Assembly: GCA_964016885.1 (NCBI GenBank)
Contig: OZ024745.1
Location: 86,366,001-86,430,000 of the forward strand
Source: Eledone cirrhosa
Taxonomy: Eukaryota
Reading direction: 5' to 3'
DNA: 64,000 nucleotides
Shown here one piece after another: positions 2,959 through 53,693 of the stretch. Made by a program: the position numbers and the translations under genes. Position 1 is the first letter of the stretch; every line of letters begins with the position of its first letter. The notes under the pieces are model-generated. The model worked only from the letters and a program-made list of their open reading frames with translations. It made no database searches and was not told the DNA's origin.

Positions 2959-5938
2959 ACTTTGAAATGTTTTGGCCAGTATTGGCCCAGGCCATGTCTA
3001 ACTTAATAGCACCACCTGGCGAAGTCTTTCAATTCAGAATTTGGGCACCATGGCCCATTCGAGAACAGAATTACTGTTTGCGGAGACATATCCGGGTGTG
3101 GGTGGTTTGTCCGGGATTACTTGGAGGAATTTGTCCAAAGACTTCTTGAATTTTGTGTGGTCAGTTTCTGTTTTGACGTGTCCTGGTGTGATGTTGAAGA
3201 GAGCAGGCCGATTGAGGTGAAATAATTGTGCCGTATTGTTGTTATGAGTTGCGATTTAGATTTTGAATGGACGGATAGCACGGGGCCCAAGCCTTGGGTG
3301 TATCTTGAAGGCGATGCCAACATCATTTGGGCAGTGATGATGGAACATTTTCCACATCATGCAGATAATATAACGCTCACGGCGACGTTGGAGTGAGTAA
3401 AGTTTCAGGTTTTCCAATCGACCCCAGTAGTCAAGGTCTGACATGCCATCTATCTTTTTCGTGATTGCCCTTTGAGGAGCTTCAAGTTTCATGATACTTT
3501 GTTTCGTGTGGGGAGACCACAGTGGACAACAGTATTCAAGGTGTGGTCGGGCGAAAGTAGAGAAGAGAAGGATAATGGTGCGGGAATCTCTCGACTGGAA
3601 GGTTCTGAGGATCCAGGAACACATTCTGCGGGCCATGTCAACTTTGCTGCTTATATGCGTGGTCCAGCTTATGTTGCTGTCCACGGTTACTCCCAAGTCT
3701 CTGATGTTGTTAGATGCCACGAGAGTTTCCCCGGAGGGAAGGGAGTACGGGAGTTTCAGAGCATCCTCTTTTCCAAAGTGGATCAGTTCGAATTTGTCTT
3801 CGTTCAGTAACATGTTGTTCTTTTCTGCCCATTGGGTAACAGCCAGTAGGTCTGACTGAAGGCTTATCCGGTCATCCACGCCATTGATGACCTTTTGGAG
3901 CTTGGAATCATCAGCGAAAATTTTAATGTTGCTGTGTTTGATGATGTCAGTGATGTCATTAATATAGATGATGAAGAGAAGTGGGCCCAACACAGTGCCT
4001 TGTGGGACTCCACTACTGACTTTGGCTGGGCTTGATTTGACTCCCTCAACTACAACATGTTGGGTTCTGTTTGACAGGAAGCTCTTGATCCACTGCAGCA
4101 GCTTTCCAGTGACACCAATATTGGACAGCTTTCTCAGTAGAATGTTATGATCAACCCTGTCAAAGGGCCTTGCTGAAATCAAGGTAGATAACATCAGTGT
4201 TGGAACCCTCTCCCAAGGCTCTCAAAATGTCATCAAAGTGATGCAGTAGTTGCGTCAGGCAATCCCTTCCATTACGGAATCCATGCTGGTTGGAGTTCAG
4301 CATATTGTTACTCTCAAGGAAGTGGGTCATTCGCGATCTCACCACTCGCTCAAATACCTTAATGATATGAGAGGTGAGTGAGATTGGACGGTAATTCACG
4401 GCAAGGGATTTGTTTCCCTTTTTGAAAACTGGGACAACAGACTGGGATAGAAGGTTTTCTGGCACATATCCAGCATCCAGTGAGTTCCGCCACAGATTGG
4501 CAAGAGGAGAAGCAAGTTGGTGTTGACACGCCTTCAAGACACAAGCAGGGAACCTATCGGGACCTACTGCTGAATTATGCTTGATTTCCTTTATTGCCGC
4601 CAAGACATCAGGGGCGCCAAACGTTATGTCCGATAAGGTGTAATGGGGAGTAACATCGCCGATACAGCCCAGATCGGCCATATCAGGATTGCTGGAAAAC
4701 AGAGCAGTATTGTTTCTGCAGTATCTCACCCATAGTTTTAGCATTGTCTTGAAGAGTGCCATTTTCATCAATTAGAGGGCCAACAGTAGAGCCAGTGATT
4801 TTGTGTTTTTTTGCAAATGAAAAGAACACTTTGGGATTGAGTTTGATCTTCTCAATGGCCCAGGCCTCTTCAGCTCTTCTCTGATTGTTGATGAGGGACA
4901 TTATGTTGTTTTGGAGGTTATGTTTTTTAATCTCTAGTGATGAAATGGCAGTCAAGTTGATGTGTTGCTGCTGACAGTATTTCAGATTGTTGATTTTTTT
5001 GTTCGTTCTCTTAATTTTTCTGATGAGCGTTTTTCTATTTCTAGGGATTCTGCTCTTAGATTTGTTTATAGTTCTTAATGGGGTGTGTTTAGCACATATG
5101 TTTGTAACAGTGTCCACAAATGTCTGCCAGGACTTTTTGATGTTAGTGGGTGTATGAGTGTGCGTGAAGGACCAGTCGACATGTGCAAGATCATGACTGA
5201 TCGCTTCCCAGTTTGCATTGTGGAAATCCATAGCGTCAAACGGATGGACAGGAGAAATGACATTGGTTTGTATATTGGACGGTGGAATCTCAGATCACAG
5301 AGAACCATGTCATGATCAGAGAGTAGAGTTTTCTCCACTGCAATATTGTGGATATTGTCAGTGTGATTGCTGAAAATTAAGTCTAGGACGTTTTTGTGGC
5401 ACCTCGTTGGTTCGAGCACTAGTTGGGATAGGAAGAAATCATCCATGAAGTCAAGAAGCGATTCCACAGCTTCCTGTCAGAGTTGAGGCAGAAGAACCTG
5501 GTGGCAGGGTGTTTGTGGACCAGTCAACTCCGGGGAGGTTGAAGTCCCCCATCATTAAGATGTTGTCAGGGTGACACTCTTGGATGAAACACTTTATGCT
5601 GTTGAGGCATTCCTTGAAGCATGGTACAGGCGTTTGGGGTGGCCTATAGAGCCCAACTACTAATAGGTTGTGGTTTGACTGAATACAGTGACTGCCTCAC
5701 AGTATCCATTAGTGAATATGTTCATAGCCTCTGTTGAGAAAGAATTATGGACATAAATGGCAGTTCCGCCCTTTCTTCTGCCAGCGCGATCAGCACGGAT
5801 GGCTTTGAAATTTTTCACTTTCACCTCGGCTTCCAAGTGGAGGTTACTGAGATGGGTTTCAGTGAGGACGAAGAAAGGGATGTGGTTTGGATGGACATCA
5901 ATCCAGTCCTCCAGGAATTTGATCTTCCATTTTTGAGT
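2959..5938 (-). mobile_element. CR1-like LINE, frameshifted ORF2 (APE endonuclease + reverse transcriptase), 5'-truncated
   Basis: Overlapping minus ORFs 5075-5467, 4683-5231, 4160-4771, 3256-4194 with NYRPISLTS, QHGFRNGR, YLDFSKA, GVPQGTVLGPLLF, FADDSKL, YSLQRRRERY; endonuclease motifs (LDLIF, SDH) upstream. Confidence 0.92.
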
Positions 5939-7401
<1,463 letters not shown>

Positions 7402-7601
7402 NNNNNNNNNNNNNNNNNNNNNNNNNNNNNNNNNNNNNNNNNNNNNNNNNNNNNNNNNNNNNNNNNNNNNNNNNNNNNNNNNNNNNNNNNNNNNNNNNNN
7501 NNNNNNNNNNNNNNNNNNNNNNNNNNNNNNNNNNNNNNNNNNNNNNNNNNNNNNNNNNNNNNNNNNNNNNNNNNNNNNNNNNNNNNNNNNNNNNNNNNNN
7601 N
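7402..7601. other. Assembly gap (200 N)
   Basis: Run of N. Confidence 1.
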
Positions 7602-7729
<128 letters not shown>

Positions 7730-7849
7730 TATATATATATTATATATATATATATATTATATATATTATATATATATATATTATATATATATATTATAAT
7801 ATTAAATAAATGGAAAACTATATTTATAAAACCATATTTATTTCATTAT

Positions 7850-7899
7850 ATATATTTCGGGGATATCATATTAACAATATGCTATGCCTTCATCAGACA
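7850..7899 (-). ncRNA. Degenerate hammerhead ribozyme motif (Penelope type)
   Basis: Reverse complement reads CTGATGA-AGGCATAGCATATT-GTT-AATATGATATCCCC-GAAA-TATA: both core boxes around an imperfect stem II; stem I not recognisable. Confidence 0.5.
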
Positions 7900-7959
7900 A
7901 AATACAATATAAACAGTTTTATAGATAAATATATTCAACATACCGTAATAAACATCAAC

Positions 7960-8003
7960 TTCATTTGAAGAGGTTTACGCTAGCGTAAACCTCTTCAAAT
8001 GAA
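7960..8003. repeat. 44-bp perfect palindrome
   Basis: TTCATTTGAAGAGGTTTACGCT|AGCGTAAACCTCTTCAAATGAA. Confidence 0.95.
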
Positions 8004-9530
<1,527 letters not shown>

Positions 9531-12500
9531 AAAAACAAATAACGAAACGAAATTAAATTTCGTTTCGTTTGTAACTCACTTTTGTATGACTGACGCTTAA
9601 ACAATTAAGTTAAAAATGTACATCCACATATGTATACTGAAATACTAGTATGCATATGAATACACACACGTGTACATATGTAGATGTACCGAGTTTTCAC
9701 TGGTCACTTTACTGTGAGTGTCCAGCTATTCCGTATGTAGACACACAGACAAACCGGTTCTTAGAGTCATACTGGTTTTTGAGGAAACACCTTTCCTCTA
9801 TTCTCCAGAAAGCCAGACAAGGAATATTGGACTAGTTTTCGATGTTGTTACATCTCATCAGCAATATTTACCTATCTTCCGGCTTCTCTAGAGAATCGTG
9901 AAAGCACATATCGTTATATGCTTTTTCTATGAAAATTAGTAGTGGGCAGACCAATTTGCATAGAGCGTGAGTACGTACCGGTTCAACGGAGACGATAAAA
10001 ACAAATAACGAAACGAAATTAAATTTCGTTTCGTTTGTAACTCACTTTTGTATGACTGACGCTTAAACAATTAAGTTAAAAATGTACATCCACATATGTA
10101 TACTGAAATACTAGTATGCATATGAATACACACACGTGTACATATGTAGATGTACCGAGTTTTCACTGGTCACTTTACTGTGAGTGTCCAGCTATTCCGT
10201 ATGTAGACACACAGACAAACCGGTTCTTAGAGTCATACTGGTTTTTGAGGAAACACCTTTCCTCTATTCTCCAGAAAGCCAGACAAGGAATATTGGACTA
10301 GTTTCGATGTTGTTACATCTCATCAGCAATATTTACCTATCTTCGGCTTCTCTAGAGAATCGTGAAAGCACATATCGTTATATGCTTTTTCTATGAAAAT
10401 TAGTAGTGGGCAGACCAATTTGCATAGAGCGTGAGTACGTACCGGTTCAACGGAGACGATAAAAACAAATAACGAAACGAAATTAAATTTCGTTTCGTTT
10501 GTAACTCACTTTTGTATGACTGACGCTTAAACAATTAAGTTAAAAATGTACATCCACATATGTATACTGAAATACTAGTATGCATATGAATACACACACG
10601 TGTACATATGTAGATGTACCGAGTTTTCACTGGTCACTTTACTGTGAGTGTCCAGCTATTCCGTATGTAGACACACAGACAAACCGGTTCTTAGAGTCAT
10701 ACTGGTTTTTGAGGAAACACCTTTCCCTCTATTCTCCAGAAAGCCAGACAAGGAATATTGGACTAGTTTCGATGTTGTTACATCTCATCAGCAATATTTA
10801 CCTATCTTCCGGCTTCTCTAGAGAATCGTGAAAGCACATATCGTTATATGCTTTTTCTATGAAAATTAGTAGTGGGCAGACCAATTTGCATAGAGCGTGA
10901 GTACGTACCGGTTCAACGGAGACGATAAAAACAAATAACGAAACGAAATTAAATTTCGTTTCGTTTGTAACTCACTTTTGTATGACTGACGCTTAAACAA
11001 TTAAGTTAAAAATGTACATCCACATATGTATACTGAAATACTAGTATGCATATGAATACACACACGTGTACATATGTAGATGTACCGAGTTTTCACTGGT
11101 CACTTTACTGTGAGTGTCCAGCTATTCCGTATGTAGACACACAGACAAACGGTTCTTAGAGTCATACTGGTTTTTGAGGAAACACCTTTCCTCTATTCTC
11201 CAGAAAGCCAGACAAGGAATATTGGACTAGTTTCGATGTTGTTACATCTCATCAGCAATATTTACCTATCTTCCGGCTTCTCTAGAGAATCGTGAAAGCA
11301 CATATCGTTATATGCTTTTTCTATGAAAATTAGTAGTGGGCAGACCAATTTGCATAGAGCGTGAGTACGTACCGGTTCAACGGAGACGATAAAAACAAAT
11401 AACGAAACGAAATTAATTTCGTTTCGTTTGTAACTCACTTTTGTATGACTGACGCTTAAACAATTAAGTTAAAAATGTACATCCACATATGTATACTGAA
11501 ATACTAGTATGCATATGAATACACACACGTGTACATATGTAGATGTACCGAGTTTTCACTGGTCACTTTACTGTGAGTGTCCAGCTATTCCGTATGTAGA
11601 CACACAGACAAACCGGTTCTTAGAGTCATACTGGTTTTTGAGGAAACACCTTTCCTCTATTCTCCAGAAAGCCAGACAAGGAATATTGGACTAGTTTCGA
11701 TGTTGTTACATCTCATCAGCAATATTTACCTATCTTCCGGCTTCTCTAGAGAATCGTGAAAGCACATATCGTTATATGCTTTTTCTATGAAAATTAGTAG
11801 TGGGCAGACTAATTTGCATAGAGCGTGAGTACGTACCGGTTCAACGGAGACGATAAAAACATCCACATATGTATACTGAAATACTAGTATGCATATGAAT
11901 ACACACACGTGTACATATGTAGATGTACCGAGTTTTCACTGGTCACTTTACTGTGAGTGTCCAGCTATTCCGTATGTAGACACACAGACAAACCGGTTCT
12001 TAGAGTCATACTGGTTTTTGAGGAAACACCTTTCCTCTATTCTCCAGAAAGCCAGACAAGGAATATTGGACTAGTTTCGATGTTGTTACATCTCATCAGC
12101 AATATTTACCTATCTTCCGGCTTCTCTAGAGAATCGTGAAAGCACATATCGTTATATGCTTTTTCTATGAAAATTAGTAGTGGGCAGACCAATTTGCATA
12201 GAGCGTGAGTACGTACCGGTTCAACGGAGACGATAAAAACAAATAACGAAACGAAATTAAATTTCGTTTCGTTTGTAACTCACTTTTGTATGACTGACGC
12301 TTAAACAATTAAGTTAAAAATGTACATCCACATATGTATACTGAAATACTAGTATGCATATGAATACACACACGTGTACATATGTAGATGTACCGAGTTT
12401 TCACTGGTCACTTTACTGTGAGTGTCCAGCTATTCCGTATGTAGACACACAGACAAACCGGTTCTTAGAGTCATACTGGTTTTTGAGGAAACACCTTTCC

Positions 12501-13252
12501 TCTATTCTCCAGAAAGCCAGACAAGGAATATTGGACTAGTTTCGATGTTGTTACATCTCATCAGCAATATTTACCTATCTTCCGGCTTCTCTAGAGAATC
12601 GTGAAAGCACATATCGTTATATGCTTTTTCTATGAAAATTAGTAGTGGGCAGACCAATTTGCATAGAGCGTGAGTACGTACCGGTTCAACGGAGACGATA
12701 AAAACAAATAACGAAACGAAATTAAATTTCGTTTCGTTTGTAACTCACTTTTGTATGACTGACGCTTAAACAATTAAGTTAAAAATGTACATCCACATAT
12801 GTATACTGAAATACTAGTATGCATATGAATACACACACGTGTACATATGTAGATGTACCGAGTTTTCACTGGTCACTTTACTGTGAGTGTCCAGCTATTC
12901 CGTATGTAGACACACAGACAAACCGGTTCTTAGAGTCATACTGGTTTTTGAGGAAACACCTTTCCTCTATTCTCCAGAAAGCCAGACAAGGAATATTGGA
13001 CTAGTTTCGATGTTGTTACATCTCATCAGCAATATTTACCTATCTTCCGGCTTCTCTAGAGAATCGTGAAAGCACATATCGTTATATGCTTTTTCTATGA
13101 AAATTAGTAGTGGGCAGACCAATTTGCATAGAGCGTGAGTACGTACCGGTTCAACGGAGACGATAAAAACAAATAACGAAACGAAATTAAATTTCGTTTC
13201 GTTTGTAACTCACTTTTGTATGACTGACGCTTAAACAATTAAGTTAAAAATG
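9531..13252 (-). repeat. Left arm of 465-bp hammerhead-containing tandem array (8 ribozyme copies, one unit with an 85-bp deletion)
   Basis: Ribozyme copies start at 9823, 10289, 10754, 11218, 11682, 12062, 12527, 12992 (period 464-466, once 380); ribozyme sense is the minus strand. Confidence 0.97.
12992..13036 (-). ncRNA. Type I hammerhead ribozyme (representative left-arm copy)
   Basis: Exact reverse complement of 13708-13752. Confidence 0.95.
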
Positions 13253-15848
13253 ATGAGATGTAACAACATCGAAACTAGTCCAATATTCCTTGTCTGGCTT
13301 TCTGGAGAATAGAGGAAAGGTGTTTCCTCAAAAACCAGTATGACTCTAAGAACCGGTTTGTCTGTGTGTCTACATACGGAATAGCTGGACACTCACAGTA
13401 AAGTGACCAGTGAAAACTCGGTACATCTACATATGTACACGTGTGTGTATTCATATGCATACTAGTATTTCAGTATACATATGTGGATGTACATTTTTAA
13501 CTTAATTGTTTAAGCGTCAGTCATACAAAAGTGAGTTACAAACGAAACGAAATTTAATTTCGTTTCGTTATTTGTTTTTATCGTCTCCGTTGAACCGGTA
13601 CGTACTCACGCTCTATGCAAATTAGTCTGCCCACTACTAATTTTCATAGAAAAAGCATATAACGATATGTGCTTTCACGATTCTCTAGAGAAGCCGGAAG
13701 ATAGGTAAATATTGCTGATGAGATGTAACAACATCGAAACTAGTCCAATATTCCCTTGTCTGGCTTTCTGGAGAATAGAGGAAAGGTGTTTCCTCAAAAA
13801 CCAGTATGACTCTAAGAACCGGTTTGTCTGTGTGTCTACATACGGAATAGCTTGGACACTCACAGTAAAGTGACCAGTGAAAAACTCGGTACATCTACAT
13901 ATGTACACGGTGTGTGTATTCATATGCATACTAGTATTTCAGTATACATATGTGGATGTACATTTTTAACTTAATTGTTTTAAGCGTCAGTCATACAAAA
14001 GTGAGTTACAAACGAAACGAAATTTAATTTCGTTTCGTTATTTGTTTTTATCGTCTCCGTTGAACCGGTACGTACTCACGCTCTATGCAAATTGGTCTGG
14101 CCCACTACTAATTTTTCATAGAAAAAGCATATAACGATATGTGCTTTCACGATTCTCTAGAGAAGCCGGAAGATAGGTAAATATTGCTGATGAGATGTAA
14201 CAACATCGAAACTAGTCCAATATTCCTTGTCTGGCTTTCTGGAGAATAGAGGAAAGGTGTTTCCTCAAAAACCAGTATGACTCTAAGAACCGGTTTGTCT
14301 GTGTGTCTACATACGGAATAGCTGGACACTCACAGTAAAGTGACCAGTGAAAACTCGGTACATCTACATATATGTACACGTGTGTGTATTCATATGCATA
14401 CTAGTATTTCAGTATACATATGTGGATGTACATTTTTAACTTAATTGGTTTAAGCGTCAGTCATACAAAAGTGAGTTACAAACGAAACGAAATTTAATTT
14501 CGTTTCGTTATTTGTTTTTATCGTCTCCGTTGAACCGGTACGTACTCACGCTCTATGCAAATTGGTCTGCCCACTACTAATTTTCATAGAAAAAGCATAT
14601 AACGATATGTGCTTTCACGATTCTCTAGAGAAGCCGGAAGATAGGTAAATATTGCTGATTGAGATGTAACAACATCGAAACTAGTCCCAATATTCCTTGT
14701 CTGGCTTTCTGGAGAATAGAGGAAAGGTGTTTTCCTCAAAAAACCAGTATGACTCTAAGAACCGCGTTTGTCTGTGTGTCTACATACGGAATAGCTGGAC
14801 ACTCACAGTAAAGTGACCAGTGAAAACTCGGTACATCTACATATGTACACGTGTGTGTATTCATATGCATACTAGTATTTCAGTATACATATGTGGATGT
14901 ACATTTTTAACTTAATTGTTTAAGCGTCAGTCATACAAAAGTGAGTTACAAACGAAATTTAATTTCGTTTCGTTATTTGTTTTTTATCGTCTCCGTTGAA
15001 CCGGTACGTACTCACGCTCTATGCAAATTGGTCTGCCCACTACTAATTTTCATAGAAAAAGGCATATAACGATATGTGCTTTCACGATTCTCTAGAGAAG
15101 CCGGAAGATAGGTAAATATTGCTGATGAGATGTAACAACATCGAAACTAGTCCAATATTCCTTGTCTGGCTTTCTGGAGAATAGAGGAAAGGTGTTTCCT
15201 CAAAAACCTGTATGACTCTAAGAACCGGTTTGTCTGTGTGTCTACATACGGAATAGCTGGACACTCACAGTAAAGTGACCAGTGAAAACTCGGTACATCT
15301 ACATATGTACACGTGTGTGTATTCATATGCATACTAGTATTTCAGTATACATATGTGGATGTACATTTTTAACTTAATTGTTTAAGGCGTCAGTCATACA
15401 AAAGTGAGTTACAAACGAAACGAAATTTAATTTCGTTTCGTTATTTGTTTTTATCGTCTCCGTTGAACCGGTACGTTACTCACGCTCTATGCAAATTGGT
15501 CTGCCCACTACTAATTTTTCATAGAAAAAGCATATAACGATATGTGCTTTCACGATTCTCTAGAGAAGCCCGGAAGATAGGTAAATATTGCTGATGAGAT
15601 GTAACAACATCGAAACTAGTCCAATATTCCTTGTCTGGCTTTCTGGAGAATAGAGGAAAGGTGTTTCCTCAAAAACCAGTATGACTCTAAGAACCGGTTT
15701 GTCTGTGTGTCTACATACGGAATAGCTGGACACTCACAGTAAAGTGACCAGTGAAAACTCGGTACATCTACATATGTACACGTGTGTGTATTCATATGCA
15801 TACTAGTATTTCAGTATACATATGTGGATGTACATTTTTAACTTAATT
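13251..15848 (+). repeat. Right (inverted) arm of the 465-bp hammerhead array (1 truncated + 5 full-length ribozyme copies)
   Basis: Reverse complement of the left-arm unit; copies at 13251 (lacks C3 and 5' stem I), 13708, 14180, 14648 (extra T in core), 15115, 15584. Confidence 0.97.
13708..13752 (+). ncRNA. Type I hammerhead ribozyme (representative copy; predicted cleavage after 13745)
   Basis: AATATTG-CTGATGA-GATGT-AACA-ACATC-GAAAC-TA-GTC^CAATATT: 7-bp stem I, intact core, 5-bp stem II, palindromic ACTAGT stem III, GUC site. Confidence 0.95.
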
Positions 15849-15930
15849 ATATATATATATATATTATATATATATTATTATATATATATATTATTATATA
15901 TATATTATATATATATATATTAATATATAT

Positions 15931-15964
<34 letters not shown>

Positions 15965-16215
15965 ATATATTATATATATATTATATATATATTATATATA
16001 TATATATATTATATATATTATATATATATATTATGTATATTATATATATATATATATATATAATATATATAATATATATGTATATTTATATAATATATAT
16101 TATATATATATATATATATTATATATATATATATTATATATATATATATTATATATAATTATATATTATATATATATATATATTATTATATATATATATA
16201 TATAATATATATATT

Positions 16216-16306
<91 letters not shown>

Positions 16307-16444
16307 ATAATATATATATATATTTATATATATATATAATATATATATATTATGTATATTATATATATATTATATATATATTTATATATATATATAATAT
16401 TATATATATTTTATGTATAATTATATATATATATATATATATAC

Positions 16445-16500
<56 letters not shown>

Positions 16501-16724
16501 TATATATATATAATATATATATATAATATTATATATATTAATTATATATATATTATATATATTATTATATATATATATATATGTATATTATATATATATA
16601 TTATATTATATATATTATATATATATTTATATATATATATATATATTATATATTATATATATATATTATATTATATATATATATATATAATGTATATTAT
16701 ATATATTATATATATATATATATG

Positions 16725-16760
<36 letters not shown>

Positions 16761-16825
16761 TATATATATATATATATATATGTATATATAGTATATATAA
16801 TATTATATATATATATTTTATATAT

Positions 16826-16858
<33 letters not shown>

Positions 16859-16973
16859 ATATATATATGTATATTATATATATAGATTATATATATATTA
16901 TATATATATTATATATATATATATAGTATATTATATATATATATATTATTATATACATACATTATATATTATT

Positions 16974-17006
<33 letters not shown>

Positions 17007-17065
17007 TATTAATATTATATATGTATATTAGTATATATATATATATTATATACATACATTATATA

Positions 17066-17103
<38 letters not shown>

Positions 17104-17172
17104 CATACATTATATATTTATATTATATATATATATATATATTATATTATATACATACATTATATATTATAT

Positions 17173-17203
<31 letters not shown>

Positions 17204-17269
17204 TATATACATACATTATATATTTATATATATAGTATATATATATTATATACATACATTATATATATA

Positions 17270-17316
<47 letters not shown>

Positions 17317-17458
17317 TATATATATTATATTATATATATATATATATATTATATATATATATTATATATATATATAATAATATATATATATATAATATAA
17401 TATATATATATATTATATTAATATATATTTATAATATATATATTTAATATATATATAT

Positions 17459-17502
<44 letters not shown>

Positions 17503-17678
17503 TATATATATTAATATATATATATAAATAATATATATATATATGTGATATATTATATTATAATATTATATATATATAATATATATATATAATATATATA
17601 TATATATTATATATATATATTATTATATATATATTATATATATTAATATTATATATATATATATATATTATATATATA

Positions 17679-17718
<40 letters not shown>

Positions 17719-18128
17719 ATATATATATATTATATATATATATTATATATATATATTAATTATATATATATATTATATATATCATATATATATATATATA
17801 TATTATAATATATATTATATATTTATATTATATATATATTATATATATATATTATATATTATATATTATATATATATATATATATTATATATATATATAT
17901 TAAATATATATATATATATATATAATATATTATAATATATATATATATATATATTATAATATAATATTTATATTTTATATATATTATATAATATTATATA
18001 TATATATTATATATATATTATAATTATATTATATATATTATATTATATATATATTTATATATTATATATTATATATATATATATTATATTATATATATAT
18101 ATTATATATATTTATATATTATATATAT
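15849..18128. repeat. Noisy (TA)n microsatellite
   Basis: Direct reading. Confidence 0.97.
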
Positions 18129-19346
18129 AGTTCTGTTTGTAAGAAAGAAAATAAGGCGGCGGTCCCCTCCGGGAAGTGGCCAATGCGCAGAGTGTAGGAA
18201 AGGCGTAGGTAGAAATTCCATTTTGTGTCCCAAATGCAAAGTTTGGGTGCATAAAAGATGTAGTGGGATCACAGGTAAGCTAAGAACATAGATTTTACAT
18301 GTGGCCGGTGTTCTGGGGAAATAAGTAGCAGCAAGTGCCTACAAAATACTAGCTCTTTCAACTGCGCAGAGGGTTCTATAGAAATAGTGGACAGCTTCCG
18401 TTACCTGGGTGACAAAATCAGCAGTGGGGGAGGGTGCTCTGAAAGTACAGTAGCTAGAGTCAGAGCAGGGTGGAAAAAGTTCAGAGAGCTTATACCACTA
18501 TTAGCCGCTAAAGGGTTCTCCCTAAAAATGAAAGGCAGGCTGTACGATGCCTGCATACGAACAGCAATGTTGCATAGCAGTGAGACCTGGGCATTGTGTG
18601 CAGAGGATATAAGCAGACTAGAGAGAAACGAAGCTTGCATGCTCCGCTGGATGTGTAATAGTAATATACGTGAACGACAAAGCATAAACGAACTAAGGAA
18701 AAAATTAGAAATAAGAGGGATCAGATGTTGTTTACTAGAGAGAAGGCTACGTTGGTATGGTCACGTGATGCGCATGAAGGACGATAGCTGTATAACAAAG
18801 TGCAGGGCAATAAAGATAGACGGTAGCCACGGAATAGGCAGACCCAGAAAAACCTGGGGCGAGCTGATAAACTCCGACCTCACACACTTACACCTCACCA
18901 AGACAATGTCACTGGACCGAGACCTTTGGCGGTACTCAGTAATAGAGAAGACCCGCCTTACCTAAATATAAAGTAAAACCTACTACAGTCATTAGGCATC
19001 TCTAACAAAATACACCCCGTCCCACCACCCCCACCCCATCGACACCGCCCCCTTCTATGTAAAGTTATGTTGGTGCCACACCATCCAGGCCGAAACAAAT
19101 GAGATCGTGTAGGTGTCACGACAAAAAAACACACAGTGCACGCTGTAATGTGGCCGTGTAGGCAACACAGTAAAAACCTCCCAGACCCACACTGTAAATG
19201 TGGTTGGTGTTAGGAAGGGCATCCAACTGTAGAAAACCTGCCAGACAGTCCTATGCGAGCAAGACAATCACTCTTGCCTCAAGTGGGAATACCCCCGTCC
19301 AAACCCATGCAAGCTTGGAACACAGACGTTAAACGTTGATGATGAT
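18129..19346 (+). mobile_element. RTE LINE family A, 5'-truncated 3' fragment with 3' UTR and (GAT)n tail
   Basis: ORF 18387-18965 nearly identical to the C-terminus of the 30692-33667 ORF; ends AACGTT(GAT)3. Confidence 0.93.
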
Positions 19347-28974: not shown

Positions 28975-29866
28975 CAAGGTGGGTCAGAAAAGTTCCAGGA
29001 CTGATGTCACAAAAGATTTATTTCAAACTCGAACTTCACACTGAGTTTTCTCTTTCAAAGTAATCCCCCTGGAGTGTAACTGTAATCTTAGCTCTCTGCA
29101 GCGATTAAACTTTTTTCTTCATAATTTTATATACATGTCCTCTGTTTCAGGTTGTCAAGCAATGAACACAGAGCAACGAACAAATTTGAAAACTCCATCA
29201 GAAGCACTGGGATTGCTGCAGCAAGTGTATGGAGATGAGACGATGTCACGCTCACGTGTTTTTGAGTGGTGCAAAAGGTTTAAAGAAGGACGCGAGGACG
29301 TGGAAGATGACTCCAGGAGCAGAAGGCCCTCAACAACCAGGACTGAGGTCAACGTTGAGCGCGTCAGGCAGATGGTGCATAGCGATCGTCGGCTGACTGT
29401 TCGACTGATGGCAAATGAGCTGGGCATGAATCGGGACAGCGTCTGGAAGATTCTCACTGAAGATTTGGACATGCGGAAAGTCTGTGCAAAGATGGTGCCA
29501 AAACTGCTGAACGATGACCAGAAGGGTCGACGCATGCAAGTGTGCCAGGACATCCTCGAGCATCTTGAAACCGAACCAGACTTGCTAGGGACAGTCATCA
29601 CCGGTGATGAGGCATGGATCTTCGAGTACGACCCGGAGGGGACCCGTTTTGAAGACGTGGACGACATCAAAAAGGCTGCGACGACAGAACTGCGGAGGAT
29701 CCCGGAAAAATCCTTCCAGGAGTGCATGCAAGCGTGGCAGAAAAGGATGGAAAAGTGCATTAGGCTCCAGGGGGATTACTTTGAAGGAGAAAACTCTTAG
29801 TCTGAAGTTTGGGTTTGAAATACATCTTTTGTGACATCAGTCCTGGAACTTTTCTGACCCACCTCG
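28975..29866 (+). mobile_element. Internally deleted mariner transposon
   Basis: 43-bp TIRs with one mismatch (28975-29017, 29824-29866), extending imperfectly to ~65 bp; TA TSD; transposase ORF inside. Confidence 0.96.
29135..29800 (+). pseudogene. Mariner transposase with an in-frame deletion of most of the DDD catalytic domain (221 aa)
   Basis: HTH region, KMVPKLL linker and first Asp (ITGDEAW) joined directly to the C-terminal GTRFEDV...GDYFEG; second and third Asp and YSPDL motif absent. Confidence 0.88.
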
Positions 29867-30293: not shown

Positions 30294-33200
30294 TCATCAT
30301 CATCATCATCATCATCATCAACGTTTAACGTCCGTGTTCCACGCTTGCATGGGTTTGGACGGGGGTAGTCCCACTTGAGGCAAGAGTGATTGTCTTGCTC
30401 GCATAGGACTGTCTGGCAGGTTTTCTACAGTTGGATGCCCTTCCTAACACCAACCACATTTACAGTGTGGGTCTGGGAGGTTTTTACCGTGTTGCCTACA
30501 CGGCCACATTACAGCGTGGACTGTGTGTTTTTTTGTCGTGACACCTACACGATCTCATTTGTTTCGGCCTCGATGGCGCGGCACCAACATAACTTTACAT
30601 AGAACGGGGTGGTGTGGATGGGGTGGGGGTGGTGGGACGGGGTGTATTTTGTTAGAGATGCCTACTGGCTGGAGTAGGTTTTACTATATATTTAGGTAAG
30701 GCGGGTCTTCTCTGTTACTGAGTACCGCCAAAGGTCTCGGTCCAGTGACATTGTCTTGGAGAGGTGTAAGTGTGTGATGTCGGAGTTTATCAGCTCGTCC
30801 CAGGTTTTTCTAGGTCTGCCTATTCCGTGACTACCGTCTATCTTTATTGCCCTGCACTTTGTTATACAGCTATCGACTTTCATGCGCATCACGTGTCCAT
30901 ACCAACGTAGCCTTCTCTCGAGTAAACAACATCTGATCCCTCTTATCTCTAATTTTTTCCTTAGTTCGTTTATGCTTTGCCGTTCACGTATATTACTGTT
31001 ACACATCCAGCGGAGCATGCAAGCTTCGTTCCTCTCTAGTCTGCGTATATCCTCTGCACACAATGCCCAGGTCTCACTGCCATGCAGCATTGCTGTTCGT
31101 ATGCAGGCATCGTACAACCTGCCTTTCATTTTTAGGGAGAACCCTTTAGCAGCTAATAGTGGTATAAGCTCTCTGAACTTTTTCCAACCAGTTCTGACTC
31201 TAGCTACAGTACTTTCAGAGCACCCACCCCCACTGCTGATTTTATCGCCCAGGTAACGGAAGCTGTCCACTATTTCTATAGAACCCTCTGCGCAATTGAA
31301 AGAGCTAGTATTTTGTGGGCACTTGCTGCTACTTATTGCACCAGAACACCGGCCACATGTAAAATCTATGTTCTTAGTTAGCTTACCTGTGATCCCACTA
31401 CATCTTTTATGCACCCATACTTTGCATTTAGGACATAAAATGGAGTTTCTACCTACGCCTTTCCTACACACTGAGCACGACCATTTCCCAGAAGGAACCG
31501 CCGCCTTGTTTTCTTTCCTACAAACTAGTACTTTGGTCTTAGCCAGGTTAATTTTAAGTCCTTTTGACTCTAGGCCGTGCTTCCATGTTTGGAATTTCTT
31601 CTCTAGCTCGGCCATTGATTCCGCTATGAGTGTCAGGTCGTCTGCGTATAGGAGTTCCCATGGGCAGCCTGTCTTGAACTCATCTGTTATAGCCTGAAGG
31701 GCAATAATAAATAGTAGGGGGCTGAGAACAGAGCCCTGATGGACGCCAACTTTTACGCTAAACTCTTCACTATATTCGTTGTTAATTCTAACCTTGCTGA
31801 CTGTTTCTTTATACATGGCTTGTATAGCCCTCACAAGCCATTCGTCAACGCCTAGTTTTCTAAGAGCCCACCAGATAATGGAGCGGGGCACTCTGTCGAA
31901 GGCTTTCTCCAAGTCGACAAAAGCTAAGTAGAGGGGTTTACCTTTAGCTAGGTACTTCTCCTGTAGTTGTCGTACTATGAAAAGAGCGTCTGTGGTACTT
32001 TTGCCTGACACAAACCCGAACTGCATTTCATCTAGGTCAATTCTCTCTCTGATTAGTTGCGCTATTACTTTTTCCGTGACCTTCATGACCTGGTCGATTA
32101 ATTTAATGCCTCTATAGTTACTCCTATCTAGGGCGTCTCCTTTACCCTTATAACAGTTAACGATGATGCTGCTATGCCAGTCCTTCGGAACAACCCCATT
32201 CTGTACGACTTGGTTAACTATGCGGGTGACCATGGTGTGTCCCACCGTGCCAGATGCCTTCAGCATCTCAGCAACTATTTCCGAAGGCCCAGCCGCCTTA
32301 CCCGTCTTCATATCCTTGATTGCCTTACTTATTATACTCCCCTCGACTAACACTGCTGGTCCCTCTATTGGGTCGATATGGGGGAGACTGTCTTTCTCCC
32401 ATTTATTCTCCTCATTTAGTAGCCTTTCATAGTGACACTTCCAAGCTACCTTCTTATCAGCGTCGGTGATGGCAAGTGTGCCATCGTCGTTTAGTACACA
32501 CTTCTCCCCGACAATATCACGGTTTTCCTTGACGCATTGCCTAGCAATCCTGAACACCTCACGTTTTTGGTCATCGCGTTGTAGAACATGCTTGAACTTT
32601 CTTTCCTCAGCTTCCCTTCTTGCTAAGTACACTTGTCTCCTAGCTTCCCTCCTGGCCACTTGATAGTCTTCTCTACTTCCCTCATCCCGCCATACTTTCC
32701 AAGCCTGCTTTTTGGCCTTAATTGACCCCTCCACCTTACTGTTCCACCACCATGTTACTCTCCTCCTGCCTACAGGCCTGCTCCAGCCACAGACTTCGTC
32801 TGTCGCCAACAGCAGGTTTGCTTTCAGAAATTCCCACTCTCCCTCTATATTGTCCGACTCTAAATGTTCTTCCTTACTGTCGAAAGCATCAAGTAATATG
32901 CTTTGAAATTTATTCCTGGCTGTGGGGTCCTTTAGCTTCCATATTTTTCTCCTGAGGATAGTCCTCTTCTGCTGTCGAGTACGTCTCGTCCTGACTATGA
33001 GGTCGCTAATTATCAGTCTATGTTGGGAGGTGCATTCTTCATGGGGGAGGGATTTAGTGTTTACAACAGACACTCTGTCGCGTCTTCTGGTAAGGATATA
33101 ATCTACCTGGCTTGTGTGTTCCCCGGATCTATAGGTGATCAGGTGATTGTCACGTTTTTTGAAGTTAGTGTTACAGATAGTTAGGTTATTTGCATCACAG

Positions 33201-33758
33201 AATTCCAGGATTCTGGAGCCTTCCTCATTTCTAGTACCAAACCCATAGCCTCCATGGATTTCGTCGTAGCCGTCACAATGTTGTCCAACGTGACCATTTA
33301 GGTCGCCTGCGATAATTATATAGTCACTGTCGGATATTTGGGAGGTAGTTAGCATCAGTGTCTCATAGAATCTGTCTTTTATAGTGCCGGGCAGTCCGGA
33401 TTGGGGTGCGTACGCAGATATTACTGTCACCGTAGTTCTATTGAGGACAAGTCGTATTTTAATTATTCTGTCGTTCACTCTATTTACGTCTATTATCTTA
33501 TCTGCCCACTTTTCTGCTACCATGATTCCTACTCCACCCAGCCCATCGTCGTTTCCCACCCAGAAAAGCTTATAACATCGTTTTTTACCCTCAATGAACC
33601 TAGCAGACCCACCCCTCCAACTGGTCTCTTGAATACAACAAACATCGACCTCCTTACGTTCAAGCATTTCTACAACCTCGTTAGCGCGACCCTTTAGGGT
33701 GCCTACATTTATGGTACCAACTCTGAAGTTTTGGATTGCGTTTGGGGGTTGGGGGCGG

Positions 33759-33792
<34 letters not shown>

Positions 33793-34773
33793 CGATGGGG
33801 TTATGTTAGCCGTCCGCGGTCGAAACAATGAGGAGTGCTCGCATTCTCGTCCAAGAGGTGAATTTGTCTTTATCTTTGGCATTGTCGCTGAGCGTCCAGA
33901 TTTTTCTCTCTCCTCCAGTCTCCAGGATTCCGCAGTCCATCCATCCATCATATATCGAAAGGCAACCAGGCAAGCGATAGTATAGGCCTCTGGCTTCTGA
34001 TTGGTCCGCGTAATAATACTGGTGATGCGTGGGGGCTCTGGCTTATGGTTGGTCCACGTAATAGCAATGGTGGTGCGTGGGGGCGGGAGGGAGGGGTGTT
34101 GGGTAGCTAGATAGAAGGTAATGATTGAATGGGGTCCTTGCATTTAACAAGCGATTAACAAAAATACAAAATTTGTTCTGTTCAATACGACCAAAAACTT
34201 TCGTATTTAACAATTAATAAATACAAAAAATGTAGATTGTTTTAGCGATAGATTGGCTATTTGGACTTGATACGAAATATGGATTGTTTTGAAAATACGC
34301 TAGAATTAGTATTTGTGGAGGTAGAGATGAAGGAAAATATGTACATTACGTTACATGAATATCGTGGGGTAGACAGCAAAGCAATGAAATTTGGCGAAGT
34401 GAATTCCTATCATATATATATATAGAGAGAGAGGGGGGGGCGCATGATGGTTGTGTGTGTTAGGCGTTTGACCGCCCCATGCCTTCGAAGTAGCGGGTGG
34501 GGGGGGGGGTCGAGTGTAAGCGGGAGTTTCGAAAGAAGGAAGAAGGAAAGGATTTTTTTTTTTTTTGTTTTGAAAATACCCTAGAATTAGGGATTGAGGT
34601 TTGAAAATACGCTAGGAATTAAGGTTTGAAAATACGCTAGATTAAGAATTAAGGAATTTATAAGAAGGAGAAGAGATAGGAGGTAATGATTGAATGGGAT
34701 CCTTGCACATTTAACAAGCGATTAACAAAAATACAAAATTTGTTCTGTTCAATACGACCAAAAACTTTCGTAT
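30294..34773 (-). mobile_element. Apparently full-length RTE LINE, family A
   Basis: (GAT)n tail, ~390-bp 3' UTR, single APE-RT ORF, ~900-bp 5' region ending at a microsatellite. Confidence 0.96.
30692..33882 (-). CDS. RTE polyprotein: APE endonuclease, reverse transcriptase, PHD-like Zn finger
   Basis: 991-aa open frame (CIQET, AGDLNGH, FVDLEKAFD, GVHQGSVLSP, YADD, CxxC...CxxC...HxxC...CxxC) stays in frame upstream (FRVGTINVGTL); probable start MPKIKTN at 33882 is offset by one base across a 33-G run (33760-33792). Confidence 0.9.
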
Positions 34774-35411: not shown

Positions 35412-36668
35412 ATCATCATCACCGTTTTACGTCCGTTCTTCCACGCTAGCATGGGTTAGACGGGTTGTCCTGTTGTGGGCAGTGTCTGGTCGGCTGACCA
35501 TGCCTTGCTCATACAGGAACTGATTTGGCTTGATTTCTACAGCTGGATGCCCTTCCTAACACCAACCTCATTTACAGTGAGTGCTGGGTGCTTTTTCGTG
35601 GCGCATACACGTCCACTTTACAGTGTGGGCTGGGTGCTTTTTTGCCGTGGCACCTCCACGACCACCTTGCGGTGGGGGCATATTATCTATATGCTTCAGC
35701 TTGTACCCATGGGAGGTCGGGTACTCTGTATTACTGCATGACGCCAGAGGTCACGGTCGTGTGTCATTGCCTTTGAGAGGTGTAATTGGGTAAGGTCGGC
35801 TTTTATCACCTCATCCCAGGTCATCATCGTGGTTTCCATCGACTTCTAGTGCTCTGCACCTTTTTATGCAGCTGTCATCCTTCATACGCATCACATGTCA
35901 ATACCAGCACAACCGCTTCTCCTGCACACAGCATTTGATTCCTCTTATGCTCAGTCTCTCTCTCAATTCATTTATGCTTTGTTGTTCACGTATATTACTG
36001 TTACACATCCATCGGAGCATGCAGGCTTCGTTTCTCTCTAATCTACGTAAGTCTTCCACCTTCAGCGCCCAGGTCTGACTACCATGCAACATCGCTGTTC
36101 GGATACACGCAACATACAGTCTGCCTTTTGCAGCTAGCAGTGGTAGTACTTCCCTAAACTTCTTCCATCCCGTTCTTACCCTAGTTATTGTACTTTCTGA
36201 ACACCCACCTCCGCTGCTAATTCGGTCACCAAGGTAGCAGAAGCTGTCTACTGTTTCTACAGAACCCTCCCAGAGATTAGTGGTACTTGTTTCCTGTGGC
36301 TGTTTGCTGCTTGCTGTCCCAGCACAGCTGCTGCATGTGAAGCCTACATTCTTAATTAAGCTTCCTGAGATCCCGCTACATCTCTTGTGTACCCATTGTT
36401 TGCATTTGGGGCAGAGAATGGAGTTCCTACCTACACCTTTCCTACATACTGAGCAAGGCCATTTCCCTGAGGGGATCTGGGTTCTGTTTTCTCGTCTACT
36501 TACAAGGACCTTAGTCTTTGTCATATTGACTTTGAAACCCTTTCTTTCTAGTCCCTGCTTCCAAGTTTGGAATTTCTTCTCTAGTTCTACCATAGATTCA
36601 GCTATAAGTGCGAGGTCATCAGCACACAGGAGTTCCCATGGGCATCCGGTTTTAAACTCCTCCGTTAT
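35412..36668 (-). mobile_element. RTE LINE family B, 5'-truncated fragment
   Basis: Matches 37427-38730 with small deletions; YADD mutated to CADD. Confidence 0.92.
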
Positions 36669-36866
36669 ATCCCCAGTCACTGAAGAGGTCACAGAATGTG
36701 TGACAATATATAAACAATCATCTGGTTGTGGAACCAACCAACCGGAAATTTATAAATTTATTATAATAAATTGAAGTGAAAGCAACTGGTGCGTATGTTT
36801 CTTATTGGCAACATGACCCTCCCAAAGTATAACAATATATATATATATACACACATACATACATAG

Positions 36867-37426: not shown

Positions 37427-40400
37427 ATCATCATCATCATCATCACCGTTTTACGTCCGTTCTTCCACGCTAGCATGGGTTAGACGGGTTGTCCTGTTGT
37501 GGGCAGTGTCTGGTCGGCTGACCATGCCTTGCTCATACAGGAACTGATCTGGCTTGATTTCTACAGCTGGATGCCCTTCCTAACACCAACCTCATTTACA
37601 GTGAGTGCTGGGTGCTTTTTCGTGGCGCCTACACGTCCACTTTACAGTGTGGGCTGGGTGCTTTTTTGCCGTGGCACCTCCACGACCACCTTGCGGTGGG
37701 GGGGGGGGCATATTGTTTATATGCTTCAGCATGTACCCATGGGAGGTCGGGTACCCTGTATTACTGCGTGACGCCAGAAGTCACGGTCGTGTGTCATTGA
37801 CTTTGAGAGGTGTAGTTGGGTAAGGTCGGCTTTTATCACCTCATCCCAAGTCATCTTGGGTCTCCCCACTCCGCGGTTTCCATCAACTTCTAGTGCTCTG
37901 CACCTTTTTATGCAGCTGTCATCCTTCATACGCATCACATGTCCATACCAGCGTAACCGCCTCTCCTGCACGCAGCATTTGATTCCTCTTATGCTCAGTC
38001 TCTCTCTCAATTCATTTATGCTTTGTCGTTCACGTATATTACTGTTACACATCCATCGGAGCATGCAGGCTTCGTTTCTCTCTAATCTACGTAAGTCTTC
38101 CACCTTCAGCGCCCAGGTCTCACTACCATGCAACATCGCTGTTCGGATACACGCGTCATACAGTCTGCCTTTCATTCTGAGGGAGAAGCCTTTTGCAGCT
38201 AGCAGTGGTAGTAGTTCCCTAAACTTCTTCCATCCCGTTCTTACCCTAGTTATTGTACTTTCTGAGCACCCACCTCCGTTGCTAATTCGGTCACCTAGGT
38301 AGCAGAAGCTGTCTACTGTTTCTACAGGGCCCTCCCAGAGATTGGTGGTACTTGTTTCCTGTGGCTGTTTGCTTGCTGTTTCAGCACAGCTGCTGCATGT
38401 GAACCTACATTCTTAATTAAGCTTCCTGAGATCCCGCTACATCTCTTGTGTACCCATTGTTTGCATTTGGGGCAAAGAATGGAGTTCCTACCTACACCTT
38501 TCCTACATACTGAGCAAGGCCATTTCCCTGAGGGGATCTGGGTTCTGTTTTCTCGTCTACTTATAAGGACCTTAGTCTTTGTCATGTTGACTTTGAGGCC
38601 CTTTCTCTCTAGTCCCTGCTTCCAGGTTTGGAATTTATTCTCTAGTTCTACCATAGATTCAGCTATGAGTGCGAGGTCATCAGCATACAGGAGTTCCCAT
38701 GGGCATCCGGTCTTAAACTCCTCCGTTATTGCCTGCAGGACTATGATGAACAGGAGAGGGCTAAGAACAGAGCCCTGGTGGACCCCAACCTGTACGCTAA
38801 ATTCCTCGCTATACTCATTGCCAATCCTAACTTTGCTGACTGCTCCCCTATACATGGCTTGTACCGCTTTCACAAGCCATTCATCTACTCCTAGTTTTCT
38901 AAGAGCCCACCAGATTACTGCACGTGGAACTCTGTCAAAGGCTTTCTCAAGGTCGACAAATGCCAAGTAGAGTGGCTTACTTTTAGCTAGGTACTTTTCC
39001 TGTAATTGCCTCACAAGGAAGAGCGCATCAGTGGTGCCTTTCCCTGGTACAAACCCAAATTGCATCTCGTCTATATTCACCCGGTCCCTAATCAGCTGTG
39101 CTATAACTCTTTCTGTTACTTTCATGACCTGGTCCATCAACTTTATACCTCTATAGTTTCCTCTATCTAGTGCATCGCCTTTACCTTTGTAGCAGTTGAC
39201 AATGATGCTACTGCACCAATCTTTTGGTATGGCCCCCTCTAGTATTACCTGGTTAACGATACGTGTGGTTATAGTGTGACCTACAGACCCAGATGCCTTC
39301 AGCATCTCGGCAGCTATACCCGATGGACCGGTTGCCTTCCCTATCTTCATATCTCTGATTGCCTTACTTACTACGCTGCCGCTGACTTGTACTGCTGGTC
39401 CCTCTATAGGGTCTACGTGGGGTAGGGTCTCTTCTTCCCATGCATTCTCCTCATTTAGTAATCTATCATAATGACTCTTCCATGCATCTTTCTTCTCAGC
39501 ACTTGTGAGGGCAAGCTCACCTTTATCATTCCGGATACACTTCTCTCCAATGACATCACAACTATCTCTGACACACTGCCTCGCAATCTTGAATACCTCC
39601 TGTTTCTGGTCCTCACGTTGTAAAACATGCTTGAATTTTCTATCCTCTGCTTCCCTCCTAGCTAAGTATACTTGTCGCCTAGCTTCCCTCTTGGTCTCTA
39701 TGTAATGTACCCTGCTCCCCCCGTTCTTCCATTCTTTCCATGCCTGTCTCTTGGCCTTGACTGCTTCATCTACCTTATTGTTCCACCACCAAGTCACTCT
39801 CCTCCTGCTTGAGGTCTTACTCCAGCCACAAACCTCATCCGTCGCCTCTAGTAAGTTATTTTTTAGGAACTCCCAGTTCTCTTCTACGTTAAATGTCTCT
39901 ATCTGTTCTTCTTTACTGTCGTAGGCGTTGAGTAAAATATCTTTAAATCTGTTACTGGTTGAGGGGACTTTCAGCTTCCAGATCTTTCTTCTCCAGGTTG
40001 GCCTCTGTTTCAGGGCTCGTCTAGTTCTGACCGTGAGGTCGCTGACAACTAAGCTATGTTGGGATGTACATTCCTCACTAGGGAAGGCTTTTGTGTTTAC
40101 GACCGTCCATCTGTCACGTCCTCTGATGAGGATAAAATCTAACTGACTAGAGTGCTCCCCTGATCTATAGGTGATCAGGTGGTTGTCGGGTTTTTTAAAG
40201 TTTGTGTTACATATCGACATGTCATTGGCGTCGCAGAATTCTAGAAGTCTGAATCCTTCCTCATTCCTTGTGCCAACTCCATGGCCTCCATGTACTCTAT
40301 TGAAGCCGTCGCAGTGTTTACCTACGTGTCCGTTAAAATCTCCTGCAATGATTAGGAAGTCCTTGTCGTCTGTTAGAGCAGTAGTGTGTATTAGGGACTC

Positions 40401-53353: not shown

Positions 53354-53693
53354 ATCATCATCATCATCATTTTTACGTCCACTTTTCCCTGTTTGCAAGG
53401 GTGGGACGGGAACTGATTCTGGCTTGATTTCTACAGCTGGATGCCCTTCCTAACACCAACCTCATTTACAGTGAGTGCTGGGTGCTTTTTTGCCGTGGCA
53501 CCTCCACGACCACTTTGCAGTGGAATGATAGGGAACCCAGTCCCCATCATCTCATTTCTACAGCTGAGTAAACTGGAGCAATGTGAAATAAAGTGTCTTG
53601 CTCAAGGAAACAACACATCACCCTGTCTGAGAATTGAACTCACAACCTTTCGATTGCAAGACCAACGCTCTAACCACTAAGCCATGTGCCTCC
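53354..53693 (-). mobile_element. tRNA-derived SINE with RTE-B-like tail (same family as 21256-21633)
   Basis: High similarity to the 21256 copy; (GAT)n tail. Confidence 0.9.

What the first reader, a model, noticed from the sequence alone, without database searches (positions are those of the whole stretch)
13237..13290. Array inversion has a twin-priming signature and breaks inside the ribozyme core
Seen: the arms diverge, with both RNA-sense 3' ends running out into (TA)n. The junction AAAAA-TG-ATGAGATG uses a 2-nt TG microhomology and removes C3 of CUGAUGA, 30 nt upstream of the cleavage site. The outer end of the right arm (CATTTTTAACTTAATT, to 15848) is the same 16 nt of the unit at which the left arm begins (13237-13252), so flipping the right arm restores one continuous multimer with a 16-nt duplication. 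Known: that geometry is typical of 5' inversions made by twin-primed reverse transcription. Inference: the ~13.6-mer was inserted in one retrotransposition event from a multimeric or rolling-circle-copied RNA.
Basis: partly seen in the sequence, partly recalled or inferred. Interest (0 to 1): 0.75.

Follow-up and report, generated by a model that had tools for sequence, protein, structure and literature searches.

The report
Two-ended copying of a ribozyme circle

Summary
The sequence facts hold: head-to-head arms, TG microhomology, break at C3 of CUGAUGA, 16-nt overlap. The reading of them fails. The layout is the family rule: 149 of 175 sampled loci have a second, inverted arm. Outer ends sit at two fixed unit positions (301 and 224-233), the Penelope 'tail' footprint; inner ends vary. 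The flip-restores-continuity overlap was enriched in a first set (18 of 87, 7.7 expected) but not in a pre-specified second set (5 of 55, 4.8 expected), and breaks in the ribozyme core are at chance level. Both arms carry one template haplotype. Rare variants fixed in every unit of a locus are mostly A>G on the ribozyme strand (31 versus 5 T>C); single-unit variants are symmetric (41 versus 52). That points to one altered RNA monomer read lap after lap. Best reading: a non-LTR retrozyme inserted by a Penelope-type enzyme priming from both target ends, cDNAs joined by microhomology repair. No partner enzyme, expression or junction-spanning read was found. This scan reported the same footprint earlier for other retrozyme families in this genome.

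The parts
9529..13252 (-). Left arm: about 8 units of the 465-nt retrozyme, RNA-sense from unit 212 (inner end) to unit 301 (outer end, the long or 'tailed' end)
13251..15848 (+). Right arm: 5.6 units, from unit 436 (inner end) to unit 227 (outer end, the short or 'tail-less' end)
13251..13252 (.). Head-to-head junction with 2-nt TG microhomology
13237..13252 (-). Unit 212-227 at the inner end of the left arm; the same 16 nt as 15833-15848. It ends at the 3' foot of a predicted 17-bp stem (unit 141-212)
15833..15848 (+). Outer end of the right arm at unit 227, one of the family's fixed short ends (227, 229, 232)
9529..9602 (-). 74-nt 'tail' (unit 228-301), present only at the left outer end; holds the near-palindromic hairpin at unit 261-289
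15114..15159 (+). One intact type I hammerhead motif: stem I, CUGAUGA, 5-bp stem II, GAAA, very short palindromic stem III (ACUAGU), predicted cleavage after 15152
   Evidence: stem II pair 443/454 covaries across loci
13421..13492 (+). Example of the predicted long hairpin, unit 141-212
11810..11810 (-). Unit variant 344A, left arm, fifth unit in from the outer end
13624..13624 (+). Unit variant 344A, right arm, fifth unit in from the outer end
11859..11861 (-). 85-nt internal deletion in one left-arm unit, at a 3-nt ACA microhomology
8009..9528 (.). Left (TA)n target tract (the wider tract from 5938 includes an assembly gap at 7402-7601)
15849..18129 (.). Right (TA)n target tract

Best explanation
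The array is one insertion of a non-coding hammerhead repeat (a non-LTR retrozyme), likely made by a Penelope-type reverse transcriptase that would prime from both ends of a cut in (TA)n at two fixed sites 74 nt apart on the same RNA, probably a monomeric circle. Inferred steps: (1) the GIY-YIG endonuclease cuts both strands of (TA)n; (2) one 3' end primes at unit 301 and the other at 227-232, each with 1-3 nt of TA pairing; (3) both enzymes run through successive hammerhead sites over overlapping template, lap after lap; (4) each stops at a variable place, here the left one at the foot of a 17-bp hairpin; (5) host end joining links the two cDNA ends by microhomology or a short insert. Shown by sequence: fixed outer ends, variable inner ends, head-to-head order, microhomology excess, one haplotype per locus, strand-biased locus-fixed variants. 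Inferred: the enzyme, the cut, the circle, editing, and the repair route.
For: 1,995 places have the unit-301 end joined to TA. A second inverted arm is present in 88 of 99 and 61 of 76 loci chosen by that end. Of 20 loci chosen without regard to ends, 13 are inverted, all head-to-head, and 31 of 32 complete outer ends lie at 300-301 or 224-232. The second arm ends at 224-233 in 118 of 135 complete cases. Joins without an insert have 2 nt or more of microhomology in 44 of 79, against 17.5% for random joins. Arms differ by 0.53%, units within an arm by 0.54%, arms of random loci by 6.1%. Locus-fixed rare variants are A>G 31 and T>C 5 of 66; single-unit variants are 41 and 52 of 436. Examples: A96G in all 21 units of L049, six A>G in both arms of L220, eight in L090. 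113 and 118 of 142 arms cross a cleavage site, and only 2 of 284 inner ends lie within 2 nt of it. RT plus GIY-YIG frames exist in the genome. PMC11167929 shows a Penelope-type enzyme cutting and extending both strands and starting at two internal RNA sites that define the tail.
Against: No autonomous element sharing sequence with this unit was found in 24 GIY-YIG loci. No RNA run was listed, so cleavage and circles are untested. The tail is 69-77 nt, longer than the 30-40 bp described. Seven loci share unit-specific variants between arms (12 sites; L234 has four at an offset of two units), which needs a multimeric template or later conversion, not a plain monomer circle; this window's 344A pair is one of them. 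The same-register test is not significant (6 of 97 versus 9 of 355, P=0.078). The A>G excess is weaker counted by locus (15 versus 5, P=0.018; both-arm loci 9 versus 4, P=0.12), and its 5' context is not depleted of G. Long arms show periodic variants, so some arrays grew at the DNA level. Pooled, 23 of 142 inner ends lie near the other arm's end against 12.5 expected.
Confidence: 0.72

Rival explanations
1. L1-style twin priming on consecutive stretches of one 13.6-unit linear RNA: the second primer anneals upstream and halts the first cDNA, so flipping one arm restores a continuous multimer.
For: This locus has a 16-nt overlap. In the first set 18 of 87 long-end arms stop within 20 nt of the other arm's end (7.7 expected, P=0.0005); pooled 23 of 142 (P=0.003). 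Microhomology at the junction fits.
Against: The pre-specified replication gave 5 of 55 versus 4.8. 119 of 142 loci lack the overlap. The second priming site is fixed, not a chance match. The arms here share 344A at the same index from each outer end. The left arm ends exactly at a predicted hairpin foot.
Confidence: 0.1
2. Two-ended priming as in the best explanation, but on a linear uncleaved multimer transcribed from an older array; the arms copy overlapping stretches and no circle is needed.
For: Unit-specific variants are shared by both arms in 7 loci, notably L234 and this window. The short stem III suggests weak cleavage as a monomer (PMC7229834 passages). In PMC11167929 uncleaved RNA was the main substrate.
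Against: It does not by itself give clusters of 6-8 A>G changes repeated identically in every unit of one locus unless an unsampled source array had already fixed them, which again needs a one-unit bottleneck.
Confidence: 0.25
3. Self-priming or snap-back: one cDNA folds back and copies itself, as proposed for Penelope elements with palindromes at the inverted junction (PMC3846280).
For: A few loci join inside a unit palindrome (L073, L068, L146, L171). A shared haplotype is expected under this model.
Against: The short-end arm is longer than the long-end arm in 56 of 135 loci, which a copy of the first cDNA cannot give. The two inner ends are not matched (9 of 88 within 20 nt, 7.8 expected). 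Here they are 224 nt apart in the unit.
Confidence: 0.06
4. Assembly artefact from a fold-back read, or a later DNA-level inversion of a direct array.
For: The right arm has error-like indels and the left flank has an assembly gap at 7402-7601.
Against: The arms are not mirror images (different phase, length and deletion). The same polarity and the same two outer ends recur at over a hundred loci with different junctions. Short-read contigs show TA joined at the same ends.
Confidence: 0.03

Closest known systems
Metazoan non-LTR retrozymes (Cervera and de la Pena 2020, PMC7229834; Li et al., bioRxiv 10.64898/2026.07.22.740005)
   Same: Non-coding tandem units of a few hundred nt, each with a type I hammerhead; short stem III as in amphibian motifs; coexists with Penelope-like elements; circle-to-tandem-cDNA route proposed in PMC7229834.
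   Different: The passages read describe direct tandems (0 occurrences of 'inverted' in PMC7229834; 1 in the preprint by the search listing). Here most loci are head-to-head with two fixed ends in (TA)n, and locus-fixed variants are strand-biased. Expression and circles are untested here.
Endonuclease-positive Penelope-like elements (PMC8557442, PMC3846280, PMC11167929)
   Same: Inverted 5'-truncated copy at the 5' end, a tail at one end only, (TA)n targets, a hammerhead, two internal start sites, both strands extended in vitro.
   Different: No ORF. Tail of 69-77 nt rather than 30-40 bp. Arms are multimers of one small unit. Junctions are mostly not at palindromes. No shared sequence with the autonomous copies sampled.
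L1 twin priming (as described in PMC2912911; the original 2001 paper was seen only as a reference)
   Same: Both target ends prime on one RNA, giving head-to-head arms joined by microhomology.
   Different: In L1 one end primes at the 3' terminus and the other at an internal chance match, in about 30% of insertions per the passage read. Here both sites are fixed and internal, inversion is the majority state, and the arms are not consecutive segments.

Membership tests
Non-LTR retrozyme | Tandem non-coding units of a few hundred nt, no LTR | tested here: met
   465-nt unit; no frame of 120 aa or more lies inside the array
Non-LTR retrozyme | Type I hammerhead in each unit | tested here: met
   Fold; core nearly invariant in about 175 loci; stem II pair 443/454 is A-T in 98, T-A in 77 and mismatched in 1. 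Rfam gave no hammerhead hit at its gathering score.
Non-LTR retrozyme | Self-cleavage and circular RNA in vivo | not testable with these tools
   No listed holder is on record as RNA; only indirect variant evidence
Non-LTR retrozyme | Dispersed by retrotransposition | tested here: met
   1,995 fixed-end places; variable 5' truncation; strand-biased template variants
Penelope-like insertion footprint | Adjacent inverted 5'-truncated copy | tested here: met
   149 of 175 loci (129 with a long second arm)
Penelope-like insertion footprint | Tail at one end only, from two start sites | tested here: met
   301 versus 224-233 in 118 of 135; longer than the published 30-40 bp
Penelope-like insertion footprint | Microsatellite target | tested here: met
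   (TA)n at the ends of loci chosen without regard to flanks
Penelope-like element (autonomous) | RT plus GIY-YIG ORF | tested here: not met
   No ORF in the array; such ORFs lie elsewhere in the genome
Penelope-like element (derived from a known partner) | Sequence shared with a partner's pseudo-LTR or tail | tested here: inconclusive
   None in 24 loci, a small sample of 10,596 first-look candidates
L1-type twin priming | Both target ends prime on one RNA; microhomology junction | tested here: met
   One haplotype per locus; microhomology excess
L1-type twin priming | Arms are adjacent segments of the RNA (feature recalled, not read in a paper here) | tested here: not met
   23 of 142 pooled within 20 nt; replication 5 of 55 versus 4.8
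L1-type twin priming | First primer at a 3' terminus or poly(A); target-site duplication | tested here: not met
   No poly(A); both ends are internal fixed sites; a duplication cannot be read in (TA)n

The most novel reading that the evidence does not exclude
The genome records rolling-circle retrotransposition directly: a single A-to-I-edited 465-nt RNA circle was read lap after lap by two Penelope-type reverse transcriptases starting at two fixed sites, so the same edits are stamped into every unit of both inverted arms. This would be sequence evidence for the circle-to-tandem-cDNA step proposed for animal retrozymes, and a two-ended explanation for Penelope's inverted copy and tail.
Probability: 0.5. 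Interest if true: 0.72.

Novelty: new member of a known kind. Interest (0 to 1): 0.5.

Why it matters
How animal retrozymes get back into DNA, and why Penelope insertions carry an inverted copy and a one-sided tail, are stated as open in the papers read (PMC7229834, PMC8557442, PMC11167929). A family with about 2,000 young two-armed insertions gives a countable footprint: two named start sites, free inner ends and strand-biased variants shared by all units. These make direct predictions for an in vitro assay. The single junction itself is ordinary for its family.

Tried and rejected
Rfam at gathering scores found no hammerhead, only a tRNA-like hit. Continuity signature: enriched in the first set, absent in the second. 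A stall at the 141-212 hairpin foot: 10 of 87 arms at 201-214 in the first set, 2 of 55 in the second (1.7 expected), so it is only a possible explanation for this locus. A junction hot spot pairing 211-214 with 431-440: 4 sampled loci (W, L031, L040, L137), but only 3 simple matches genome-wide versus 2 for one control pattern; one control is weak. Same-register copying: P=0.078. Occasional misreading of inosine as the cause of 344A: no clear excess of such mixed sites. Partner search: no shared sequence in 24 loci. Sequencing runs: no RNA holder listed; no contig bridged 13251 in four runs from two samples, which proves nothing. A gapped pattern meant to list only the youngest subfamily could not be run, so the second set was chosen by a long pure TA flank and may lean young. 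Rows dropped before counts: L082 (duplicate of L081); L150 (232 at both ends) from the offset tests; L082 and L190; loci with short second arms from the offset tests; still included L082. Short-arm classes are by pattern and include a few doubtful calls (L122, L146, L237), while L171 is inverted but was classed as single. Literature searches: 'twin priming' with 'Penelope' gave 3 papers, none on this by title or abstract start; 'retrozyme' with 'ADAR' gave 1 unrelated review; 'Penelope-like', 'head-to-head', 'hammerhead' gave 0. Supplements were not read; Supplementary Figure S9 of PMC7229834 and those of the preprint may bear on novelty.

Full report
Observation. The window holds a 6,320-nt array of a 465-nt unit between (TA)n tracts. 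Numbering the unit from the base after the predicted cleavage site, the left arm (9529-13252, minus strand) runs from 212 to 301 and the right arm (13251-15848, plus strand) from 436 to 227. The arms share TG, the right arm lacks C3 of CUGAUGA, and the 16 nt at 13237-13252 are the reverse complement of 15833-15848. Four right-arm units carry 4-11 differences each, mostly single-base insertions, so the consensus there is noisy.

The unit. It folds into a type I hammerhead with a 5-bp stem II and a very short palindromic stem III. Rfam did not report it at its gathering score. Across about 175 loci the core is nearly invariant and the stem II pair 443/454 is A-T in 98 loci, T-A in 77 and mismatched in 1. 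No long frame lies in the array. This fits the metazoan non-LTR retrozymes of PMC7229834 (passages read) and bioRxiv 10.64898/2026.07.22.740005 (parts 1-3 of 5 read).

The inversion is the family rule. The genome is 3.0 Gb; 1,995 places show the unit-301 end joined to TA. Of 20 loci picked only by unit identity, 13 are inverted, all head-to-head, and 31 of 32 complete outer ends lie at 300-301 or 224-232. Among loci picked by the 301 end, 88 of 99 (74 long, 14 short second arms) and 61 of 76 (55 long, 6 short) have an inverted second arm. That arm ends at 224-233 in 118 of 135 complete cases, 102 of them at 227, 229 or 232. Short-read contigs from a public sample show TA joined at the same positions. 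An inverted 5'-truncated copy, a tail at one end and (TA)n targets are described for Penelope-like elements (PMC8557442 and PMC3846280, passages). PMC11167929 (parts 1-2 of 4 read) shows a purified enzyme cutting and extending both strands and starting at two internal RNA sites that bound the tail. Frames with RT and GIY-YIG matches exist in this genome, but none of 24 such loci shares sequence with the unit.

If a flip restored continuity, one arm's inner end should lie near the other arm's outer end. In the first set 18 of 87 did so within 20 nt (7.7 expected, P=0.0005). I wrote the test down and fetched 76 new loci: 5 of 55 (4.8 expected). Pooled it is 23 of 142, so at most a small minority. 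Here the overlap follows from a fixed end at 227 and an inner end at 212, which is the foot of a predicted 17-bp stem; stalling there was also enriched only in the first set. Inner ends at 431-442 are at chance level (4 of 142 and 6 of 129), and this junction type has 3 simple matches genome-wide against 2 for a control. Microhomology is real: 44 of 79 insert-free joins have 2 nt or more, against 17.5% by chance, and 63 of 142 joins carry inserted letters, often short copies of nearby sequence.

One template, read repeatedly. Arms of a locus differ by 0.53%, units within an arm by 0.54% (93 loci), arms of random loci by 6.1%. The short-end arm is the longer in 56 of 135 loci, against snap-back copying, and arm lengths correlate (rho 0.26, P=0.002). 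Most arms cross cleavage sites and only 2 of 284 inner ends lie within 2 nt of one. In 196 loci, rare variants fixed in every unit of a locus are A>G in 31 and T>C in 5 of 66 on the ribozyme strand, whereas single-unit variants are 41 and 52 of 436. Eighteen of the A>G sites are fixed in both arms, which lie on opposite genomic strands, so a strand-specific assembly error does not explain them. L049 has A96G in all 21 units, L220 six such changes, L090 eight. The bias appears in both sets (21 versus 3; 10 versus 2) but is weaker by locus (15 versus 5, P=0.018), and the neighbours only partly match the ADAR preference I recall. My inference is an RNA-stage change in a single monomer that was then multiplied, most simply by reverse transcription round a circle, the route proposed in PMC7229834.

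What does not fit a plain circle. Twelve unit-specific variants in 7 loci are shared by both arms. This window has 344A in the fifth unit from each outer end; L088, L127, L128 and L188 also match in register; L234 has four sites offset by two units. The register test is not significant (P=0.078). These cases need a mixed multimeric template copied twice or later conversion between arms; consecutive segments do not predict them. Periodic variants in long arms (L054, L096, L108, L115, L123) show growth at the DNA level, so 13.6 units is not a safe measure of the RNA.

Mechanism. Most likely (0.72) a Penelope-type enzyme cut (TA)n on both strands, primed at 301 and at 227-232 on one RNA, copied overlapping template in both directions of the chromosome, and host repair joined the two truncated ends. 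It resembles L1 twin priming as described in PMC2912911 (passages) in using both target ends and microhomology. It differs in having two fixed internal start sites and non-adjacent arms. A circle is the likelier template for the family; for this locus a multimer stays open.

Novelty. The element is a new member of a known kind and the layout is known for Penelope-like elements. The A>G fingerprint was not found in the searches listed under Tried and rejected, which cover open-licence papers only. Interest 0.5.

Noticed in passing
window 7812-8008 (minus strand): A second, unrelated small element in the same TA tract: a hammerhead-like motif at 7896 beside a 44-nt palindrome (fold z -7.3). Elsewhere in the genome its copies are head-to-head with the junction fixed on that palindrome, the pattern that PMC3846280 reads as self-priming. 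Only one arm is present here.
   Followed up: partly
window 29973 (minus) and 30093 (plus): A short head-to-head pair of near-identical hammerhead-like motifs of a third family; further hammerhead-like motifs at 1558 and 21738.
   Followed up: no
window 30692-33805, 38322-40847, 35898-36749, 56800-57714 (minus): LINE-type frames with RT and PHD-finger matches; the two longest also match AP endonuclease. Broken RT pieces at 3256-4771.
   Followed up: partly
window 29045-29800 (plus): Frame with Mos1-type HTH matches, probably a mariner-like remnant.
   Followed up: no
window 53627-53684 (minus): Partial tRNA-like match just over the Rfam cut-off, possibly the head of a SINE.
   Followed up: no
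window 7402-7601 and 5920-6500: A 200-N assembly gap inside the left TA tract, and a tandem duplication of about 300 nt at the tract's left border. Linkage of the array to the far left flank is not certain.
   Followed up: no
L130:696-765: A 70-nt G+C-rich foreign insert between the two arms, possibly captured RNA or DNA.
   Followed up: no
L123, L108, L096, L054: Very long arms (L108's runs beyond 27 kb by the listing) with periodic variants, that is higher-order repeats: retrozyme insertions turning into satellite-like arrays.
   Followed up: partly
family-wide, unit position 465: About half of the loci have T instead of C at the cleavage position (89 versus 86); an alignment effect of a nearby indel was not excluded.
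   Followed up: no
L150; L081 and L082: L150 has the short end (232) on both arms. L081 and L082 are the same insertion duplicated about 18 kb apart.
   Followed up: no
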